Positions 5,355 to 38,745 of a DNA stretch of 64,000 nt are shown piece after piece. This DNA comes from Minisyncoccota bacterium (GTDB lineage: Bacteria > Patescibacteriota > Minisyncoccia > Phycocordibacterales > SBAW01): NCBI GenBank assembly GCA_035546615.1, contig DASZWM010000006.1:144417-208416 (forward strand), given 5' to 3'. The first letter of the stretch is position 1, and each line of letters begins with the position of its first letter. The notes below the pieces were generated by a model. The model made no database searches, was not told the origin of the DNA, and worked only from the letters and a program-made list of their open reading frames with translations. The position numbers and the translations under genes are program-made.

Positions 5355-6590
5355 ATGTGCATGTCAAAGCAGAAGTTGTGGGCGCTTGGAGGCTCGGCAG
5401 TTGTTGCGCTCGCCTTTGTGGCGGGCGTATACACCGGCCTGGGCGAGCGCGTTGCCAATACCGTTTCCGCCCAGTCGGTCAATTTCCTCGAGCCGACAAA
5501 TGCGCCGGCCGATGTCGACATGCAGAAGCTCTGGAAGGCGTGGTCTCTTTTGCGCGACGATTACGTCCCGACGCACGCCTCGACCACGTACCCGACCGCC
5601 GAAGAACAGCTCTGGGGCGCCATCGGCGGCCTTACCGACAGCTTCGGCGACCCGTACACGGTTTTCCTGCCGCCGGCGGAAGCCAAGACCTTTCAGGAGG
5701 ACATCAGCGGCGCGTTCGAGGGCGTGGGCATGGAGATGGGAACTAAAGACGGCCAGCTGGTGGTCGTGGCGCCGCTTAAGGACTCTCCCGCGGAGAAGGC
5801 CGGCATTCACAGCGGCGACGCGATACTTTCAATAGACGGCAAAGACACGGGCGGCATGTCTGTGGACGACGCAATCAAGCTCATCCGCGGCAAAAAGGGC
5901 ACGGTCGTGACACTCAGCATTGGCCGCGAAGGCAGCGCGACCCCGTTTGAGGTCAAGATAACGCGCGACACCATCAGCATCCCGGTGCTCAAGAGCTACA
6001 TGCGCGAGGACGGCATCTACGAAATCGACCTGTACAGCTTCTCCGCCAACTCGGCCGACCTGTTCCGCGGCGCCCTGCGCGAGTTCATCAAGAGCGGCTC
6101 GAACAAGCTCATGTTCGACCTGCGCGGCAATCCGGGCGGCTACTTGGAAGCGGCCGTTGATATGGCGAGCTACTTCCTTCCGGTAGGCGACACGGTCGTA
6201 AGCGAGGATTTCAAGGGCAAGCGGCCGGCCAACGTGCACCGCAGCGCGGGCTACAACGTGTTCGCGGGCAAGAACCTCCATATGGCAATCCTGGTGGACC
6301 AGGGCTCCGCCTCGGCTTCGGAGATTCTTTCAGGCGCGCTCCAGCAGCACAATGTCGCCAAGCTCGTCGGCACCCGCACGTTCGGCAAGGGCTCCGTCCA
6401 GCAGCTCATGGAGCTCGGCGGCGGGGCGGAGCTCAAGATAACTATCGCTCGCTGGCTTACCCCGAATGGCTCGTCCATCTCCGACGGCGGCCTCACGCCC
6501 GACATTCTGGCGACAACCACCCCCGAGCTCATCAAGGCCGGCAAAGACGTGCAAAAGGATGCGGCAGTGAAGTGGCTTCTCTCGCAGTAA
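5355..6590 (+). CDS. ctpA: Carboxy-terminal processing protease (S41 family, PDZ domain)
   Basis: N-terminal TM anchor, PDZ domain, and S41 catalytic region (GSASASEI...TFGKGSVQ). Alternative start at ATG 5361. Divergent promoter (TATACT at 5340-5345) with a very short leader. Confidence 0.8.
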   Translation: MCMSKQKLWALGGSAVVALAFVAGVYTGLGERVANTVSAQSVNFLEPTNAPADVDMQKLWKAWSLLRDDYVPTHASTTYPTAEEQLWGAIGGLTDSFGDPYTVFLPPAEAKTFQEDISGAFEGVGMEMGTKDGQLVVVAPLKDSPAEKAGIHSGDAILSIDGKDTGGMSVDDAIKLIRGKKGTVVTLSIGREGSATPFEVKITRDTISIPVLKSYMREDGIYEIDLYSFSANSADLFRGALREFIKSGSNKLMFDLRGNPGGYLEAAVDMASYFLPVGDTVVSEDFKGKRPANVHRSAGYNVFAGKNLHMAILVDQGSASASEILSGALQQHNVAKLVGTRTFGKGSVQQLMELGGGAELKITIARWLTPNGSSISDGGLTPDILATTTPELIKAGKDVQKDAAVKWLLSQ

Positions 6591-6672
6591 CTCAGCAATT
6601 GTGTACTTCTCCCTAAGGTGATAGTGTCTTACCGGTGTTCTTAAGGCAGGACCTGACACAGGAGGAGACGCA

Positions 6673-6912
6673 ATGCCGCTTTGGATAATTATCTTGGCCG
6701 CCCTACTCGTCGTGGCGCTCATCTACCTACTGCTTGGCTACTTTACCCTTCGCATGAGGGTTGGTCTGCAGGGACAGGGACTTCCTGTGCAGGTCGGAAC
6801 CACGGTCTGGCACTTCTGGTTTTGGTGGGTAACGATCTTCTGGGTTTTACCGGCCTTCCTCGCGTACAAGCAAGGTGCTGAAGTGGTTCAAACCCAATAC
6901 AGCGTTTTTTGA
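6673..6912 (+). CDS. Small membrane protein (79 aa, 2 TM, Trp-rich)
   Basis: Strong Shine-Dalgarno (AGGAGG) 6-8 nt upstream. Hydrophobic throughout. Confidence 0.55.
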
Positions 6913-8201: not shown

Positions 8202-8804
8202 ATGCTTGCCGTTGACGTAGAATCCTCCGGCACGGAGGCCCACAAGCACTCCATTTTGAGCCTCGGCGCCGTCGACCTCGGCAATCCGTCCAGGCCCTTT
8301 TTCTACGAAGAGTGCCGCGCCTGGGACGGCGCCAAGCTCGAGCCCGAGGCATTTGCGGTGAACGGCTACACCGAAGCGACCGCGACCGACCCGACCAAAC
8401 AGTCCGAAGCCGACCTGGTGCATAAGTTCAAGGAATGGGCTATGCAGTCCGACGACCGCACCTTTGCGGGGCAAAACGTTTCCTTCGACCGCGATTTCCT
8501 TAAGTACGCCGCCGAGCGCGCGGGGCATACCGACTGGCCGTTCGCACACCGCACCATCGACACGCATACCCTGTGCTGGATGCACATGGTAAAGCGTGGC
8601 CTTACGCCGCCTCTGGACCCGGTAAAGAAGCGCTCCGCGCTCGATTTGGACGCCATTCTGGTCTACTGCGGCATTCCGGACGAGCCGACGCCGCACAATG
8701 CTCTCACGGGCGCCAAGTCCCATGCCGAAGTCATCTCGCGCCTGTTGTACGATAAGAAGCTCCTGCCCGATTTCGAGCAGTTCGACATACCCTGGCTCTC
8801 ATAG
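8202..8804 (+). CDS. DEDDh 3'-5' exonuclease (DnaQ-like)
   Basis: Exo I DxE (VDVESSG), Exo II and Exo III H...D (HNALTGAKSHAE) motifs are present. Confidence 0.75.
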   Translation: MLAVDVESSGTEAHKHSILSLGAVDLGNPSRPFFYEECRAWDGAKLEPEAFAVNGYTEATATDPTKQSEADLVHKFKEWAMQSDDRTFAGQNVSFDRDFLKYAAERAGHTDWPFAHRTIDTHTLCWMHMVKRGLTPPLDPVKKRSALDLDAILVYCGIPDEPTPHNALTGAKSHAEVISRLLYDKKLLPDFEQFDIPWLS

Positions 8805-9325
8805 CCGTTCTTTGGTAGGGTCAAAATAGAGCAACCGCTCTGTCAAAAAGAAGGAATATCCGATGACAGGAATAGTCGATACACGCCGCGCATGTCTAAG
8901 ATGCGGTAGCCCCATCTCATCCGCAAGCAGCCCGCTTGTTGTGCAAGAGCGAGGCTTCAGCGCAGAAGCGTGCGTGCCCGCTGCGATATGTCGCAATTCG
9001 GCCTGTGGCCAGGTCACTGCGGATCGCGCAAGTGTGGCGAACTCATCGTTGCGGTGGATGTACGGGCGCACCCCGGTCACTTTCGTTCCGGGCCCGATTT
9101 CCCGGTCTAATGAGTTTTTGCTTACTCCTACGGCCGCGCAGCTCCATCGGGCGTAAGGCTCAACGGAAACGTCACCTCCCCGTCGCGTCCAGTACAGGAT
9201 GCGACGGTTTTGCTTCGCAAACCCGCGACCCCGCCTCACAATCGCTTTAGCGATATGTTCCGGCCTTCAATTCCGGGCGCAGGCAAAGCAGTTTACCTGC
9301 TCGGCCCTCCTTCGTTAACACTCAG

Positions 9326-9396
9326 TCGGGCCGCCGGGAATTGAACCCGGTCTACATGCACCCCATGCATGTGTACTGCCGGTATACTACGGCCCG
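9326..9396 (-). tRNA. tRNA-Pro (anticodon GGG)
   Basis: Manual cloverleaf fold. Acceptor CGGGCCG/CGGCCCG; D-stem GTAT/GTAC; anticodon stem CATGC/GCATG with loop ATGGGGT (U33, GGG, G37); T-arm CCGGG-TTCAATT-CCCGG; discriminator A. CCA is not encoded. Confidence 0.8.
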
Positions 9397-9475
9397 TTTC
9401 TTCCAGTATTTACTACCATACCTCACTCTGTTAGTGTTGCGCTAGTAACGTACCTCAATAACCGGAGACTGCGCC

Positions 9476-10258
9476 ATGGCTGACAAGCCGCTTATTCCGA
9501 GTGCCGCATTCCATATCGACGAGATCAAGAAGCTCCGGGCCTCCAAGGAGGAGCGGAGGAAGACCTATGAGGCGGGTCTCGCCGAGGATCAGCAGGATAT
9601 CGACGAGCACCTCGAATACCTGCGCGATAATCTCAAAGCCGGGGATACTACTGGCGACCGCATAACCGACCATGTACTGACCCATTGGGGCGGCGACCCC
9701 GAGCGGGAAGAGTGGTATCGGGCTGCAGACGCCCGGCTCAAGGGCCACGGAGGGCAACTCGTACTGACCTTCGCGACCCAGCTGGTCGCAGAAGGTCCGT
9801 TCATCCGGCACATGGAGCACCCCGGGGCCAAACACATCATGGCCCCGCCGCGTCCGGCCAAAAAGCTGGTTACGCATTATCAGCTGGCGGTCCTGACCGG
9901 CGAGGAGCTCGTCTTGACCGATGCCTCGCCGCGCCTGCCGACCAAACAGTACATCGTCTGGTCGGTAAAAGAGGGTAACTCAAGCCCCCCGACCGTCGTC
10001 AACAGCCTCATTCCGAACGAGATGTTGCCGCTGCCGGCGAAGCCGGTATCAGGGGCGAGACCTCCCCAGTTCTCCCATCTTCTTGTCGACATCGACGACG
10101 TCGACGAAGACGTGCCGGTCGACAACCCGCTTTTTGTGGGCGACGAAGAGGTGGGCGAGCTCTTCAAGAAGAACGGCTGGCCCGAGAGCTTCTGGATACA
10201 ATGCCTCAACAAGCTGGGCCGCTACGATCTCGTAGCGCCCGACCATCAGACTGCGTAA
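9476..10258 (+). CDS. Hypothetical protein (260 aa), acidic C-terminus
   Basis: GGAGA Shine-Dalgarno upstream. No recognisable domain. Followed by a terminator. Confidence 0.55.
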   Translation: MADKPLIPSAAFHIDEIKKLRASKEERRKTYEAGLAEDQQDIDEHLEYLRDNLKAGDTTGDRITDHVLTHWGGDPEREEWYRAADARLKGHGGQLVLTFATQLVAEGPFIRHMEHPGAKHIMAPPRPAKKLVTHYQLAVLTGEELVLTDASPRLPTKQYIVWSVKEGNSSPPTVVNSLIPNEMLPLPAKPVSGARPPQFSHLLVDIDDVDEDVPVDNPLFVGDEEVGELFKKNGWPESFWIQCLNKLGRYDLVAPDHQTA

Positions 10259-10275
10259 GCGGTCTCTAACGACAA

Positions 10276-10306
10276 CCCCCGCCGGGTCATACCGACGGGG
10301 TTTTTC
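10276..10306 (+). terminator. Rho-independent terminator (CCCCG...CGGGG-TTTTT)
   Basis: Hairpin followed by a T-run, downstream of the 9476 gene. Confidence 0.6.
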
Positions 10307-10310
10307 TTTG

Positions 10311-10400
10311 CCAGCAAAAAAGAAAAACCGCGCGTCCCCGGTGCCAGGGAACGCGCGGCTCTTGCTTCGGCGTCGGTTGCCGAACTTCCGCCGAAGCGAA
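10311..10400 (-). terminator. Tandem hairpins plus T-run (terminator of the 10403..10744 gene)
   Basis: GCTTCGGCG...CGCCGAAGC and CCGCGCGTTCCC...GGGACGCGCGG hairpins, then TTTTTCTTTTTT on the minus strand. Confidence 0.65.
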
Positions 10401-10402
10401 TG

Positions 10403-10744
10403 TCATGACTCAAGCAGAGGCTCCAGCAGCACTATGCTGAACCCGTCGTCCTTGGGGACGAAGTAGTGCAGCAGATACCACTGCCCGCCGTGCTTGAAGC
10501 GGACGACGGTCCTGGGGCTCCATGCCTCGGGTCCGTCGCCAACCATGATCGTGTCCGCCCCGCACGGCTCCGGAGGAATCACGTCGCCCTTCAGGTCTAC
10601 CGCCAGCGCAATGGCGTCCGGCGCGTTCGGGCAGACGTAGCCCGTCATTTCCACTGGAGGCGGCGTCGGGGGGAGGCATGATAGCACGCCCATACCTGCC
10701 GATAGCACGGCGCCGCAGTACATGACTATCCCTGCTGTCATCAA
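10403..10744 (-). CDS. Small secreted hypothetical protein (signal peptide, 113 aa)
   Basis: N-terminal hydrophobic signal. Pro/Gly-rich mature part. Own terminator. Confidence 0.5.
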   Translation of the reverse strand: MMTAGIVMYCGAVLSAGMGVLSCLPPTPPPVEMTGYVCPNAPDAIALAVDLKGDVIPPEPCGADTIMVGDGPEAWSPRTVVRFKHGGQWYLLHYFVPKDDGFSIVLLEPLLES

Positions 10745-10918
10745 AGAACCTCCCGTACGCTCGGGCCTCCGAGCTCGTACACAAATTATAGCACCGGGTG
10801 AATCTTGAGTGAATAGAGGGCATGGAAGGTCGGCAAAACCCCTAAAAAGCTTTAAAACAAAGGCATATCGCCGTCAATTCACGCGTGTTTCAGGACCCTG
10901 TTTTTTGTCAAGGGACCC

Positions 10919-32427: not shown

Positions 32428-32618
32428 CCCGCCCGCAGAAGCCGTTCCGGCTCTGTCGGGCGGTTTCTGTTTATATGACAACTAGAGTCATAGATAATTT
32501 AGTTGTCGTCACAACTAAATTTCTGCCGACCCCGCCTCAGCTATTTTGCTTGCTGGCAAAATATGCTTCCGGCCCGTGTAAGTGCAGCAAAAAGTAAAGC
32601 AGTTTACTTTTTTCAGCC

Positions 32619-33701
32619 TTACACGCCTTCTTCCTTGAGTTTCTCTATCAGTCCTTTAGCTGTTTTGGAGAGTTTTTGTGGCAGGATTATTTTAACGCGC
32701 ACTATTAAATCGCCGCGCTTGCCCCGGCCCATAACTACGCCGCGGCCCTTTACCGAAATAGTCTCGCCATGCGTGATGCCGGGTGGAATAGAGAGGGCCT
32801 CTTCCCCGTCGAGTGTTTGAATTTTATATTCTGCACCCAAAAGCGCGTCGGAAAGCTTTACCGAAAGGTCGGTCATGATATGCGCGCCTTCTTTCTTAAA
32901 GCGCGGATCGGGGCTGACGTGCACTTTTACGTACAGGTCGCCTGAGGCTCCGCCCGCCACCGCCTCCCCCGAGCCGGTAAGGCGTATCATCTCGCCGCCC
33001 TCAATGCCCGCGGGCACGACTATCTCTATCTCTTCCTGCTTCTTGTAGACGCCTTCGCCGCGGCAGGTGTGGCATTTTTCCTTCGGAACTTTGCCGGTGC
33101 CGTGGCATTGCGGACAGACCCGCGTCATCGAGATGGAACCGAAGAACGAGTTGTTGGTCTCGTGGATCTTGCCCGCGCCGTTGCACTTGTTGCAGGTCTC
33201 GAGCTTGGTGCCCGGCTCGGCGCCGGAGCCGCCGCAGGTCTCGCATTGCGCGGTCTTGGCAAGAAGCACGCGGCGGGTCGTGCCGAATACGGACTCCTTA
33301 AAGGAGATCTCTAAATCTATGGAAATGTCGCGGCCGCGGCGCTGGCGCGTGCCGCCGCCCTGAAAGAGGTCGCTGAATACGTCGCTAAAGTCGAAGCCTC
33401 CCATGCCGCCGTTGAATGCGTCCTGGAATTGCGAGAAGTCGAAGCCCTGTCCGCCGCCGAAACCGCCCTGGTTGGGATTGCCGCCGCTGAACGTGCGGCC
33501 GTAGGAATCGTACTCGGCGCGCTTCTTTTCGTCGGAAAGTATTGAGTATGCTTCGGAAACCTCTTTGAATTTGTCGGAATCACCGGAGCTTTTGTCCGGG
33601 TGGAATTTATGCGCGAGCTTGTGGAACGCTTTCTTTATCTCATCCTTGGTGGCCTTTTTATCGACTCCCAGGATCTCGTAATAGTCGCGGTTCCCTGCCA
33701 T
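32619..33701 (-). CDS. dnaJ: Chaperone DnaJ
   Basis: J-domain with HPD, G/F region, four CxxCxGxG zinc-finger repeats. Confidence 0.9.
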   Translation of the reverse strand: MAGNRDYYEILGVDKKATKDEIKKAFHKLAHKFHPDKSSGDSDKFKEVSEAYSILSDEKKRAEYDSYGRTFSGGNPNQGGFGGGQGFDFSQFQDAFNGGMGGFDFSDVFSDLFQGGGTRQRRGRDISIDLEISFKESVFGTTRRVLLAKTAQCETCGGSGAEPGTKLETCNKCNGAGKIHETNNSFFGSISMTRVCPQCHGTGKVPKEKCHTCRGEGVYKKQEEIEIVVPAGIEGGEMIRLTGSGEAVAGGASGDLYVKVHVSPDPRFKKEGAHIMTDLSVKLSDALLGAEYKIQTLDGEEALSIPPGITHGETISVKGRGVVMGRGKRGDLIVRVKIILPQKLSKTAKGLIEKLKEEGV

Positions 33702-38105: not shown

Positions 38106-38331
38106 AAGTATAGTTAGCGCTTGCGGCCACATGTCGAGTTTAGCCGTCGCTAAACTCGCACGCGGTCAGGCGTCGTTTTCTGCTGAAAACGCGCACGACC
38201 CTGGCTCGCGCCGTCGCGCTCCGCCTCTGAATCCTTCAGGTGTTCGGATTCAGCCCGCCTCGCCATTTTGCAAGTGCAAAATATGGCTCCGGCCGTCTCG
38301 CGTTTAATAAAAGCAAAACTGATTGCTTTTA

Positions 38332-38745
38332 TTAGCGCTTCGACCACTGCTTGCGCTTGCGGGCTTTTCTGAGGCCGAACTTGCGGCGCTCTTTAGCGCG
38401 AGGGTCGCGCTTGAGGAAGCCCTCCTTCTTGAGGACGCCGCGCAGGTCGGCCTGATAGTCGACGAGCGCGCGGGAAATAGCATGGCGTACCGCGATAGCC
38501 TGCCCCGCGATGCCGCCGCCGCGGACAACGATGGTAACCGCGAACTGAACCGGCAAATTTACCTTGAGGAACGGCTCCATAGCCGCTATGCGAAGGGCTT
38601 CGGTATCAAAATACTTGTTCGCGTCCATGTTGTTTATGGAAACGATGGTGCGCGGGCCCGGCGTAAGGCGGGCGCGGGCGATAGCCGTCTTGCGGCGGCC
38701 GATGGTCTCTATATAGCGGTCTGTTTCTTTGGGTTTGGTTGCCAT
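38332..38745 (-). CDS. rpsI: 30S ribosomal protein S9
   Basis: GRRKTAIARARL ... C-terminal KRKQWSKR. Confidence 0.9.
   Translation of the reverse strand: MATKPKETDRYIETIGRRKTAIARARLTPGPRTIVSINNMDANKYFDTEALRIAAMEPFLKVNLPVQFAVTIVVRGGGIAGQAIAVRHAISRALVDYQADLRGVLKKEGFLKRDPRAKERRKFGLRKARKRKQWSKR

What the first reader, a model, noticed from the sequence alone, without database searches (positions are those of the whole stretch)
8805..9325. About 520 bp ORF-free, GC-rich, hairpin-dense region abutting the 3' end of tRNA-Pro
Between the exonuclease stop (8804) and the tRNA-Pro 3' end (9326) no frame has protein-like composition. The track ORFs are all low-complexity Arg/Cys/Ser-rich. The DNA is rich in local dyads: AGAGC-aacc-GCTCT, CCGCAT…ATGCGG, GCGA-tatg-TCGC, CCGGG-cccgattt-CCCGG. 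At 9262-9285 there is an inverted partial copy of the tRNA T-arm/acceptor (CCGGCC-TTCAATT-CCGGGCG, compared with tRNA CCGGG-TTCAATT-CCCGGCGG). Candidates: a divergent RNase P RNA or other structured ncRNA (a GAAAGTGACCGGGG segment loosely resembles the P4 region), or a decayed integration scar at the tRNA 3' end, where att sites duplicate tRNA 3' segments. I could not match the tmRNA, SRP or canonical RNase P consensus by eye.
Basis: seen in the sequence. Interest (0 to 1): 0.55.

Follow-up and report, generated by a model that had tools for sequence, protein, structure and literature searches.

The report
Hidden small gene plus tRNA-flanking repeat
The supposedly gene-free 520 bases hold a small conserved cysteine-rich protein gene and its terminator, followed by a 100-base copy of a structured repeat that in these tiny bacteria sits at the 3' ends of tRNA and other genes and carries a mirror-image copy of its neighbour's end.

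Summary
The region is not ORF-free. Window 8863-9156 (+) encodes a 97-aa CxxC...CxxxxC protein. A syntenic relative has it at 76% identity, with differences concentrated at third codon positions (14/12/33), and three 35-38% homologues share its cysteine and WMYGRxPV motifs. Its terminator hairpin (9180-9207) is conserved with a compensatory change.

Only 9225-9325, next to the tRNA-Pro(GGG) 3' end, is non-coding. It is one copy of a repeat family that matches no Rfam family. There are three copies in this window: after tRNA-Pro, dnaJ and rpsI. Other Patescibacteria carry copies after tRNA-Pro, tRNA-Met and tRNA-Arg.

Two hairpins covary (14 of 14 pairs). Complete copies are flanked by 20-22 nt direct repeats of the tRNA 3' end. 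Relatives show empty sites.

No RNase P, tmRNA, SRP or 6S signal was found. GC equals the window mean, and whole-region folding is only marginally better than shuffles.

Best reading: a small accessory gene plus a decayed copy of a recombinase-less miniature insertion element that regenerates the 3' end of its target. The "integration scar" idea is partly right. The insertion mechanism is inferred, not shown.

The parts
8805..8862 (+). Spacer between the exonuclease stop and the small gene. It is AT-richer (GC 0.45), has GAAGGA (8850-8855) 7 nt before the ATG as a likely ribosome-binding site, and carries an unexplained dyad AGAGC-AACC-GCTCT at 8828-8841.
   Evidence: Read from the sequence. 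GC. The stretch just before the ATG, including the ribosome-binding site, is conserved in L124.
8863..9156 (+). Gene for a 97-aa cysteine-rich small protein with CxxC...CxxxxCG...WMYGRxPVxxVxGP motifs, probably a zinc ribbon. No Pfam family matches it.
   Evidence: P0001 is 76% identical, E 4.6e-39. P0003-5 are 35-38% identical and keep the same Cys and MYGR motifs. L124 is syntenic. Codon-position differences are 14/12/33, with 22 synonymous and 23 non-synonymous codon changes. No Pfam family. The overlapping 146-aa minus-strand ORF has no homologue.
9180..9211 (+). Intrinsic-terminator-like hairpin of the small gene: CCGTCGC...GCGACGG followed by TTTT.
   Evidence: Found by the terminator scan. 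It is conserved in L124 as CCGCCGC...GCGGCGG, one compensatory pair, also followed by a T-rich run.
9225..9239 (-). Conserved block GUGAGGCGGGGUCGC of the repeat element, read on the minus strand. Homology to L124 ends here and homology to the element family begins.
9240..9254 (-). Element hairpin hp1' (AUCGC-UAAA-GCGAU).
   Evidence: All 5 pairs show changes on both sides across 6 copies.
9255..9278 (-). Element core GCCCGGAAUUGAAGGCCGGAACAU. Its 3' half GCCGGAACAU is constant in all copies.
9279..9300 (-). Element hairpin hp2' (GCAGGUAAA-CUGC-UUUGCCUGC). Its U.G pair would be a C-A mismatch on the plus strand.
   Evidence: All 9 pairs show changes on both sides and 100% are paired..
9302..9307 (-). 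GGGCCG, the remnant of the inverted complement (X*) of the tRNA-Pro acceptor 3' strand. It is 11 nt long in L020 and L093.
   Evidence: cognate-specific complementarity matrix..
9308..9325 (-). Spacer between X* and the tRNA 3' end. It occupies the place of the terminator hairpin E of complete copies and is decayed here. Its UGAGUG start is shared with L048.
9326..9396 (-). tRNA-Pro (GGG), with no encoded CCA. It is the gene whose 3' end the element abuts.
32487..32625 (-). Second copy of the element, immediately after the dnaJ stop codon. The stop-codon region CGUGUAAG pairs with CUUACACG on the far side of hp2'.
   Evidence: R1 32.7 bits, R2 59.1 bits. Sequence, dnaJ. Relatives L131 and L132 have only 19-42 nt here.
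38114..38340 (-). Third, longer copy, between rpsI and grpE. A 12-bp hairpin includes the rpsI stop codon. A 9-13 nt direct repeat (AAGCGCTAA / CCGCAAGCGCTAA) lies at the two ends.
   Evidence: R2 19.3 bits. The motif scan finds exactly these 3 copies, and 0 of 100 shuffles reach 3.. An orthologous copy sits in L130 (28.7 bits). Empty sites occur in L131 and L132.

Best explanation
The 521 bases are a composite of two things.

(1) 8863-9156 is a real, compositionally atypical accessory gene for a 97-aa zinc-ribbon-like protein. It has its own ribosome-binding site and a terminator at 9180-9211. It lies in a lineage-variable spacer between the RNase T-like exonuclease gene and tRNA-Pro.

(2) 9225-9325 is a decayed copy of a 130-200 nt structured repeat element. 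Read on the strand of the upstream gene, the order of a complete copy is:
- gene 3' end (X)
- hairpin(s)
- inverted complement of X (X*)
- constant GCCGGAACAU
- hairpin hp1'
- GUGAGGCGGGGUCG
- hairpin B'
- ...GUGAC
- a direct repeat of X

Most likely the element is a non-autonomous miniature insertion element. It enters at the 3' end of a gene (at tRNAs, from T-loop position C56 to a few bases past the end), duplicates or replaces about 21 nt so that the gene end is regenerated, and is then carried in the upstream gene's 3' trailer, where X pairs with X* in a long hairpin.

The order X-hairpin-X*-body-X is what one strand exchange would produce between the target and a circular element whose attachment site is a folded X:X* hairpin, as with CTX phage or integron attC sites.

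Shown: the gene, the family, the covarying hairpins, the cognate complementarity, the direct repeats, and occupied versus empty sites.
Inferred: mobility, the recombination mechanism, and transcription.

The window copy has lost its direct repeat and most of X*, so it is probably an immobile relic.
For: Gene:
- Homologues and synteny.
- Third-position excess 14/12/33.
- Conserved Cys and MYGR motifs at 31-36% identity.
- Conserved terminator with a compensatory pair.

Element family:
- Model R1, built from window, L020 and L093, finds held-out L109 at 56.6 bits, a second window copy at 32.7 bits and L016 at 25.4 bits.
- R2 finds a third window copy and an orthologous copy in L130.
- The motif occurs 3 times in the window against 0.38 expected by chance.

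Structure:
- 14 of 14 pairs of hp2' and hp1' change on both sides, 94.6% of cells are paired, and 0 of 500 shuffles reach this.

Target duplication:
- L020 21/21, L016 21/22 and L093 20/21 (0 of 1000 shuffles each); L109 13/15 (8 of 1000).

Cognate inverted complement:
- Matrix: 11 nt for tRNA-Pro in L020 and tRNA-Met in L093, 8 nt for tRNA-Arg in L109.
- The core follows the T-loop A/G variant in the window and the CCCUCC T-stem in L016.
- At rpsI, the stop codon UAA (window) or UAG (L130) pairs with UUA or CUA, a compensatory change.

Insertion polymorphism:
- tRNA-Pro lies 0-95 nt after the exonuclease gene in L001, L073, L034, L003, L009 and L017.
- The rpsI-grpE and dnaJ-trpS spacers are 19-76 nt in L131 and L132.

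No known RNA family matches.
Against: - The window copy has no direct repeat (887 of 1000 shuffles score as well) and only 6 nt of X*. Its status as an insertion rests on homology and on absence from relatives.
- No recombinase or transposase lies in or beside any copy; neighbours are housekeeping genes.
- No autonomous relative was found in viral contigs, phages or plasmids.
- Only eight copies are known.
- The window and L130 copies at rpsI are 44/45 identical over the constant part although GrpE is only 79% identical. That points to selection for a function, perhaps as RNA, rather than a purely selfish relic.
- How X* would be re-matched to each new target is not explained by any known mechanism.
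- The codon-usage score and GC3 of the 97-aa gene look non-coding. The case for the gene rests on comparative evidence from few homologues: four in 5.8 billion proteins.
Confidence: 0.6

Rival explanations
1. The tRNA-proximal element is mainly a functional RNA module, a 3'-trailer or 3'-UTR structure co-transcribed with the upstream gene. It would seal the gene's 3' end in a long X:X* hairpin to terminate, process or stabilise the transcript, or to regulate tRNA maturation. Its spread and the direct repeats would be secondary.
For: - It always lies on the strand of the upstream gene and directly after its end.
- Two U.G pairs are allowed only on that strand.
- The strong terminator of the rpsI-grpE spacer lies downstream of the element, so the element should be transcribed.
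- Orthologous copies are 44/45 identical in the constant part despite 79% GrpE identity, and a compensatory change keeps the stop codon paired.
Against: - A pure RNA role does not explain the 20-22 nt direct repeats of the target at the far end.
- It does not explain the empty sites in relatives.
- No expression data are available, and no Rfam family matches.
- This reading is compatible with the main explanation rather than exclusive of it.
Confidence: 0.2
2. The element is an ordinary scar of a large tRNA-integrating prophage or island: attL and attR arms left after internal deletion.
For: It lies at the tRNA 3' end, with direct repeats of the tRNA 3' segment starting in the T-loop. The exonuclease-tRNA-Pro spacer is a variable hotspot carrying different small genes in different lineages.
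Against: - Independent copies at tRNA-Pro, tRNA-Met and tRNA-Arg share the same end-to-end organisation and size, 150-205 nt. Random deletions would not give that.
- Copies also sit after dnaJ and rpsI.
- No integrase remnant is present in any locus.
- No match in phage, plasmid or viral collections.
Confidence: 0.12
3. The region is a divergent RNase P RNA, tmRNA, SRP RNA, 6S RNA or another known ncRNA.
Against: No hit at gathering thresholds in the window or in four related loci, and nothing relevant at E<=10. ARAGORN finds no tmRNA. 56% of the region is coding.
Confidence: 0.01
4. The 97-aa ORF is not translated, and its conservation in L124 reflects conserved non-coding DNA.
For: The codon-usage score is negative (-0.34) and GC3 is 0.60 against 0.74 in the window's genes. 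No Pfam family matches. The structure model is weak, pLDDT 60.
Against: Differences by codon position are 14/12/33 and half of the differing codons are synonymous. Homologues at 31-36% identity in unrelated genomic contexts keep the four cysteines and the WMYGRxPV motif.
Confidence: 0.07

Closest known systems
Cis-mobilizable elements (CIMEs) and other integrase-less derivatives of tRNA-integrating elements (own knowledge: Pavlovic et al. 2004; Bellanger et al.)
   Same: A non-coding unit at the 3' end of a tRNA gene, flanked by direct repeats of the tRNA 3' segment, with the tRNA regenerated and no recombinase of its own.
   Different: - It is only 130-200 nt, against kilobases for CIMEs.
- It is also found after protein-coding genes.
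- It contains an inverted complement of the target.
- No parental integrase-bearing element is known.
Bacterial MITE-like repeats transcribed into structured RNA (Correia/CREE, ERIC, RUP, BOX; own knowledge)
   Same: Small, multi-copy, non-coding and intergenic. It forms conserved hairpins, is often co-transcribed with neighbours, and shows occupied and empty sites.
   Different: MITEs have constant terminal inverted repeats and a short target duplication of fixed length. Here the inverted repeat is derived from each target, and the duplication is 9-22 nt and regenerates the gene end.
Folded single-strand attachment sites: CTX phage attP(+) and integron attC (own knowledge)
   Same: An imperfect palindrome whose two arms pair to mimic a duplex recombination site. 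The integrated order X-loop-X*-body-X is what a single strand exchange with such a hairpin would give. Structure is conserved more than sequence.
   Different: The targets are gene 3' ends rather than dif or attI. There is no GTTRRRY core. The duplication is far longer. No recombinase has been identified, and nothing has been tested experimentally.
IS110-family bridge RNA (Durrant et al. 2024, PMC11208160)
   Same: An RNA-sized unit of about 150-180 nt in which two target-complementary segments are separated by a hairpin, and in which the complementary segments covary with the target.
   Different: - Bridge RNA guides pair with opposite DNA strands; here both pair with the same strand.
- Bridge RNAs lie next to a DEDD recombinase gene; none is present here.
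- IS110 insertion leaves only a 2-nt core repeat.
- No second (donor) loop was identified.
Small zinc-ribbon proteins (for the 97-aa gene)
   Same: CxxC ... CxxxxC spacing, small size, and an all-beta prediction.
   Different: No Pfam, zinc-ribbon or Ogr/Delta model reaches significance. The WMYGRxPVxxVxGP motif is specific to this tiny family.

Membership tests
Bacterial RNase P RNA (Rfam RNaseP_bact_a/b) | Covariance-model match including the P4 helix and conserved core | tested here: not met
   No match at gathering threshold or at E<=10 on either strand. The supposed P4-like segment lies inside the coding sequence 8863-9156.
tmRNA / SRP RNA / 6S RNA | Covariance-model or ARAGORN match | tested here: not met
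   ARAGORN finds no tmRNA. Rfam gives only an 18.8-bit permuted-tmRNA hit (gathering score 47) over the tRNA T-arm.
Integration scar / att site of a tRNA-targeting integrative element | Lies at the 3' end of a tRNA gene and is absent from close relatives | tested here: met
   The element abuts the tRNA-Pro 3' end. L001, L073, L009, L017 and others have the tRNA 0-95 nt after the exonuclease gene.
Integration scar / att site of a tRNA-targeting integrative element | Direct repeat of the tRNA 3' segment at the far end of the insert | tested here: inconclusive
   Absent in the window copy. Present in homologous copies: L020 21/21, L016 21/22, L093 20/21, L109 13/15.
Integration scar / att site of a tRNA-targeting integrative element | Integrase gene, or its remnant, within or beside the insert | tested here: not met
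   The inserts are 150-205 nt with no ORF family. Neighbours are housekeeping genes. The distal 342 nt of the window region is the small gene, not a recombinase remnant.
MITE | Small, non-coding, several copies per genome | tested here: met
   Three copies in 64 kb.
MITE | Terminal inverted repeats with the same sequence in all copies | tested here: not met
   The inverted repeat (X*/core against X) differs with the target gene.
MITE | Target-site duplication of fixed short length | tested here: inconclusive
   20-22 nt at tRNAs and 9-13 nt at rpsI. None detectable at dnaJ or in window copy 1.
IS110 bridge RNA | Adjacent DEDD/Tnp recombinase gene; guides pairing with opposite strands of the target | tested here: not met
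   No adjacent ORF of that kind. Both complementary segments match the same strand. Criteria taken from PMC11208160.
Integron attC / CTX-type folded attachment site | Imperfect palindrome containing a target-identical arm | tested here: met
   X and X* flank a hairpin in every copy: a 26-bp perfect palindrome in L020, and 12-15 bp including the stop codon at rpsI.
Integron attC / CTX-type folded attachment site | Cognate tyrosine recombinase (IntI or XerCD) acting on the folded strand; conserved crossover core | not testable with these tools
   No recombinase was linked to the element. The window's other genes were not screened for one. No GTTRRRY core was seen by eye.
Structured RNA (generic) | Helices supported by compensatory changes | tested here: met
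   hp2' 9/9 and hp1' 5/5 pairs have changes on both sides. The slid controls give 36-47% paired against 94.6% for the structure. The alignment was fitted to the model, and DNA palindromes would give the same pattern.
Protein-coding gene (97-aa ORF) | Homologues with a purifying-selection signature | tested here: met

The most novel reading that the evidence does not exclude
The repeat is a new kind of recombinase-less mobile unit that finds the 3' end of a gene through a built-in complementary segment. This segment is split by a hairpin at tRNA targets. The unit would act either as a folded single-strand attachment site that mimics the target duplex, or as a guide RNA for a recombinase encoded elsewhere. 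It rebuilds the gene end when it inserts. The complementary segment is reset for each new target (tRNA-Pro, tRNA-Met, tRNA-Arg, rpsI, dnaJ).
Probability: 0.2. Interest if true: 0.8.

Novelty: new variant of a known kind. Interest (0 to 1): 0.5.

Why it matters
For annotation, the case shows that a compositionally odd, cysteine-rich small gene can pass for non-coding DNA both by eye and by codon statistics, and that only comparative evidence revealed it.

For biology, Patescibacteria have tiny, compact genomes with few recognised mobile elements. A 130-200 nt element that sits at gene 3' ends, restores the end it interrupts and keeps a complement of that end paired by compensatory change would be a compact case of target-matched insertion. 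If the complement acts as a guide or a folded attachment site, it would add a programmable-looking integration system from an under-studied phylum.

It also explains why the tRNA-Pro flank is a rearrangement hotspot in this clade.

Tried and rejected
- **Known RNA families.** Rfam at gathering and at E<=10 on the region, and at gathering on L020, L016, L093 and L109, gave only tRNAs.
- **Whole-region folding.** It is only marginally better than shuffles.
- **Codon-usage and GC3 scan.** It called all frames non-coding. That was wrong for the 97-aa gene, so this test is not reliable for atypical genes.
- **The 146-aa minus-strand ORF.** No homologue.
- **'Older decayed element copies' at 9010-9146.** My by-eye idea (GGTCACTG; GTTCCGGGCCCGATTTCCCGG) got no support from nhmmer or from local alignment against shuffles. 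That stretch is coding.
- **A decayed direct repeat at 9147-9172.** Not significant, and it overlaps the gene's stop codon.
- **Other collections.** Phage and plasmid collections gave no match. Viral contigs gave 0 hits and then 1 chance hit.
- **Metagenome pattern scan.** Of 44 loci, only L093 and L109 are real. L103, L100 and L081 (about 22 bits, no tRNA nearby) were judged chance.
- **Loose motif in the loci.** Six extra matches lack the hairpins and fit the chance expectation.
- **IS110 bridge RNA.** Defining features not met.
- **Link between the small protein and the element.** Its homologues lie in housekeeping contexts without a tRNA or an element.
- **Structure prediction of the small protein.** pLDDT 60, too weak for a fold search.
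- **Look-up of the window's own exonuclease and 97-aa proteins.** Not on record.

Full report
**Setting**

The window comes from a Candidatus Paceibacterota (Patescibacteria) genome. Neighbouring genes have their best relatives in Adlerbacteria-, Kaiserbacteria- and Paceibacterota-labelled MAGs, and the window's own GrpE is on record under that name. tRNA-Pro(GGG) lies at 9326-9396 on the minus strand, so its 3' end faces the region in question. An RNase T-like exonuclease gene ends at 8804.

**Checking the observation**

- GC is 0.578 against a window mean of 0.576, so the region is not GC-rich.
- Folding of all 521 nt gives z = -1.6 on either strand, so it is not notably hairpin-dense.
- Rfam finds nothing but the tRNA, even at E<=10.
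- The inverted T-arm-like copy is real: 14 nt, 93% complementary, and only 6 of 500 shuffles score as well.

**The hidden gene**

My first tests seemed to confirm that the region was non-coding. The ORFs had no Pfam hit, negative codon-usage scores and GC3 near 0.60, against 0.74 in the window's genes. An exhaustive HMMER search with the 97-aa plus-strand ORF (8863-9156) overturned this.

- It found a 91-aa protein at 76% identity (E 4.6e-39) and three proteins of 89-137 aa at 35-38% identity. All share CLxCG, CxxxxCGxV and WMYGRxPVxxVxGP.
- The 76% homologue lies in a syntenic locus, L124, with the order L9, L27, two small ORFs, exonuclease, this gene, tRNA-Pro.
- Differences between the two genes fall 14/12/33 on codon positions 1/2/3. 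Of the differing codons, 22 are synonymous and 23 are not.
- Upstream there is a GAAGGA ribosome-binding site.
- Downstream there is a terminator-like hairpin, 9180-9207 plus TTTT. L124 keeps it with a T-A to C-G compensatory change.
- The overlapping 146-aa minus-strand ORF has no homologue.

So 8863-9156 is a real gene. It has atypical composition and belongs to a very rare family: four homologues among 5.8 billion proteins. No Pfam family matches. Its homologues sit among housekeeping genes, without tRNAs or the repeat described next.

**The tRNA-proximal 100 nt**

Among 78 related loci, the closest relatives have tRNA-Pro 0-95 nt after the exonuclease gene. Only L020 shares DNA with the region, and only next to the tRNA. 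Homology with L124 stops at 9224.

In L020 the shared segment lies between two exact copies of the last 21 nt of the tRNA. A metagenome pattern scan brought in two more homologues, one next to the 3' end of a tRNA-Met (L093) and one next to a tRNA-Arg (L109).

A covariance model built from window, L020 and L093 found:

| Hit | Position | Score |
|---|---|---|
| L109 (held out of the model) | 3' of tRNA-Arg | 56.6 bits |
| Second window copy | 32530-32611 (-) | 32.7 bits |
| L016 | directly 3' of its tRNA-Pro | 25.4 bits |

. A second model added a third window copy near 38253-38330. A loose motif, GCCGGA-N2-4-AT-N12-34-GAGGC, hits exactly these three places in the window, and 0 of 100 shuffles reach three hits. 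No Rfam family matches any copy.

**Anatomy of the element**

Read on the strand of the upstream gene, a complete copy runs:

1. the gene's 3' end (X);
2. at tRNAs, a terminator-like hairpin E;
3. X*, an inverted complement of the acceptor 3' strand;
4. hairpin hp2' (9 bp, loop CUGC);
5. a segment complementary to the T-loop and T-stem 3' strand;
6. the constant GCCGGAACAU;
7. hairpin hp1';
8. GUGAGGCGGGGUCG;
9. hairpin B';
10. ...GUGAC;
11. a direct repeat of X.

hp2' and hp1' show changes on both sides in 14 of 14 pairs, with 94.6% of cells paired. No shuffle or slid control comes close. Two U.G pairs fit only the strand of the upstream gene.

The complementarity is specific to each element's own tRNA. 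The runs are 11 nt in L020 (Pro) and L093 (Met) and 8 nt in L109 (Arg). The T-loop-matching segment follows the A variant of the window's tRNA and the CCCUCC T-stem of L016.

Direct repeats score as follows:

| Copy | Direct repeat | Shuffles scoring as well |
|---|---|---|
| L020 | 21/21 | 0 of 1000 |
| L016 | 21/22 | 0 of 1000 |
| L093 | 20/21 | 0 of 1000 |
| L109 | 13/15 | 8 of 1000 |
| Window | none | 887 of 1000 |

The window copy keeps hp1', the core, hp2' and 6 nt of X*. It has lost E and any direct repeat, so it is a decayed member.

**Copies after protein-coding genes**

Window copy 2 follows dnaJ and copy 3 follows rpsI. In both, the stop-codon region pairs with a segment just beyond hp2':

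- dnaJ: CGUGUAAG with CUUACACG;
- rpsI: UAAUAAAAGCAA with UUGCUUUUAUUA.

Copy 3 has a 9-13 nt direct repeat that includes the stop codon.

Relatives L131 and L132 have only 71-76 nt between rpsI and grpE and 19-42 nt after dnaJ. These are empty sites. L130, whose GrpE is 79% identical, has an orthologous copy after rpsI (28.7 bits). That copy is 44/45 identical to the window over the constant part and ends in GUGAC followed by GCUCUAGUA. Its stop codon is UAG, paired with CUA, where the window has UAA paired with UUA, a compensatory change.

**Interpretation**

Occupied and empty sites, duplication of the target, and a shared interior at five different targets all point to an insertion element. 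Its defined size and its organisation argue against random remnants of large islands. So do the absence of any recombinase and the absence of matches in phage, plasmid and viral collections.

The order X-hairpin-X*-body-X is what a single strand exchange would give between the target and a circular element whose attachment site is a folded X:X* hairpin. This is the logic of CTX phage attP and integron attC (own knowledge). This step is inference.

The strong conservation between orthologous copies, and the compensatory change at the stop codon, show that the X:X* hairpin is under selection. The element therefore probably also works as an RNA or DNA structure at the end of the upstream gene. 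I could not tell which.

IS110 bridge RNAs resemble it in size and in having two guides split by a hairpin, but their defining features are not met.

**Verdict**

The finding as stated, an ORF-free structured region that might be RNase P RNA, is wrong for most of its length. The "inverted T-arm copy" turns out to be a conserved design feature of a repeat family that I could not find in Rfam or in the literature searched.

My confidence by claim:

| Claim | Confidence |
|---|---|
| The 97-aa ORF is a gene | about 0.9 |
| 9225-9325 belongs to the repeat family | about 0.95 |
| The element is, or was, mobile by target-regenerating insertion | about 0.55 |
| The folded-hairpin or guide mechanism | about 0.2 |

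Noticed in passing
L001-L073 loci, position about 6600-6770 in each (window equivalent 9326-9396): The tRNA-Pro(GGG) gene next to the exonuclease gene is on the minus strand in some relatives (L001, L003, L009, L017, L034, L054, window) and on the plus strand in others (L073, L004, L011, L013, L016, L048, L053). Little more than the tRNA itself is inverted.
   Followed up: partly
L124:6277-6583: The relative that shares the 97-aa gene has a different, complete tRNA-Pro(GGG) at 6416-6488. On its 3' side is a pseudo-copy of its 3' part (GTCGGGGTGCCGA...CCGGGCTACATG). On its 5' side, 17 nt away, is a remnant of the 5' half of the window-type tRNA-Pro. This looks like a tRNA gene replacement at this hotspot.
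   Followed up: partly
L048:6708-6750; L003 and L034, 55-70 nt 3' of their tRNA-Pro: Very short inserts at the tRNA-Pro 3' end are flanked by a direct repeat of the tRNA end. In L048, 22 nt starting UGAGUG and ending GUGAC, like the ends of the element, are followed by a 19/21 repeat. L003 and L034 have GGCGGCCCGA-like repeats. These may be internally deleted elements.
   Followed up: no
L070:6582-6998; L020:6673-6972; window 8863-9156: The exonuclease-tRNA-Pro spacer carries a different small gene in different lineages: a PNPOx-like 138-aa gene in L070, a 99-aa ORF without a Pfam hit in L020, and the 97-aa zinc-ribbon-like gene in the window and L124. The side of the tRNA away from the exonuclease (window 9423-10904) is also variable.
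   Followed up: partly
window 32487-32625 and 38114-38340: The two other element copies bracket the grpE-dnaK-ABC transporter-dnaJ cluster, one between rpsI and grpE and one after dnaJ. Both have the orientation of those genes.
   Followed up: partly
L130:3560-4270: The rpsI-grpE spacer of this relative is 906 nt. Beyond the element copy there are about 700 nt that the source called no gene in. They were not examined for RNA families or ORFs.
   Followed up: no
window 8863-9156: The 97-aa gene has GC3 0.60 and a negative codon-usage score, against 0.74 and +0.5 for the window's genes. It may have been acquired horizontally. Composition-based coding tests missed it.
   Followed up: yes
window 9476-10258: The 260-aa ORF on the 5' side of the tRNA, away from the exonuclease, has native codon usage but no Pfam family.
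   Followed up: no
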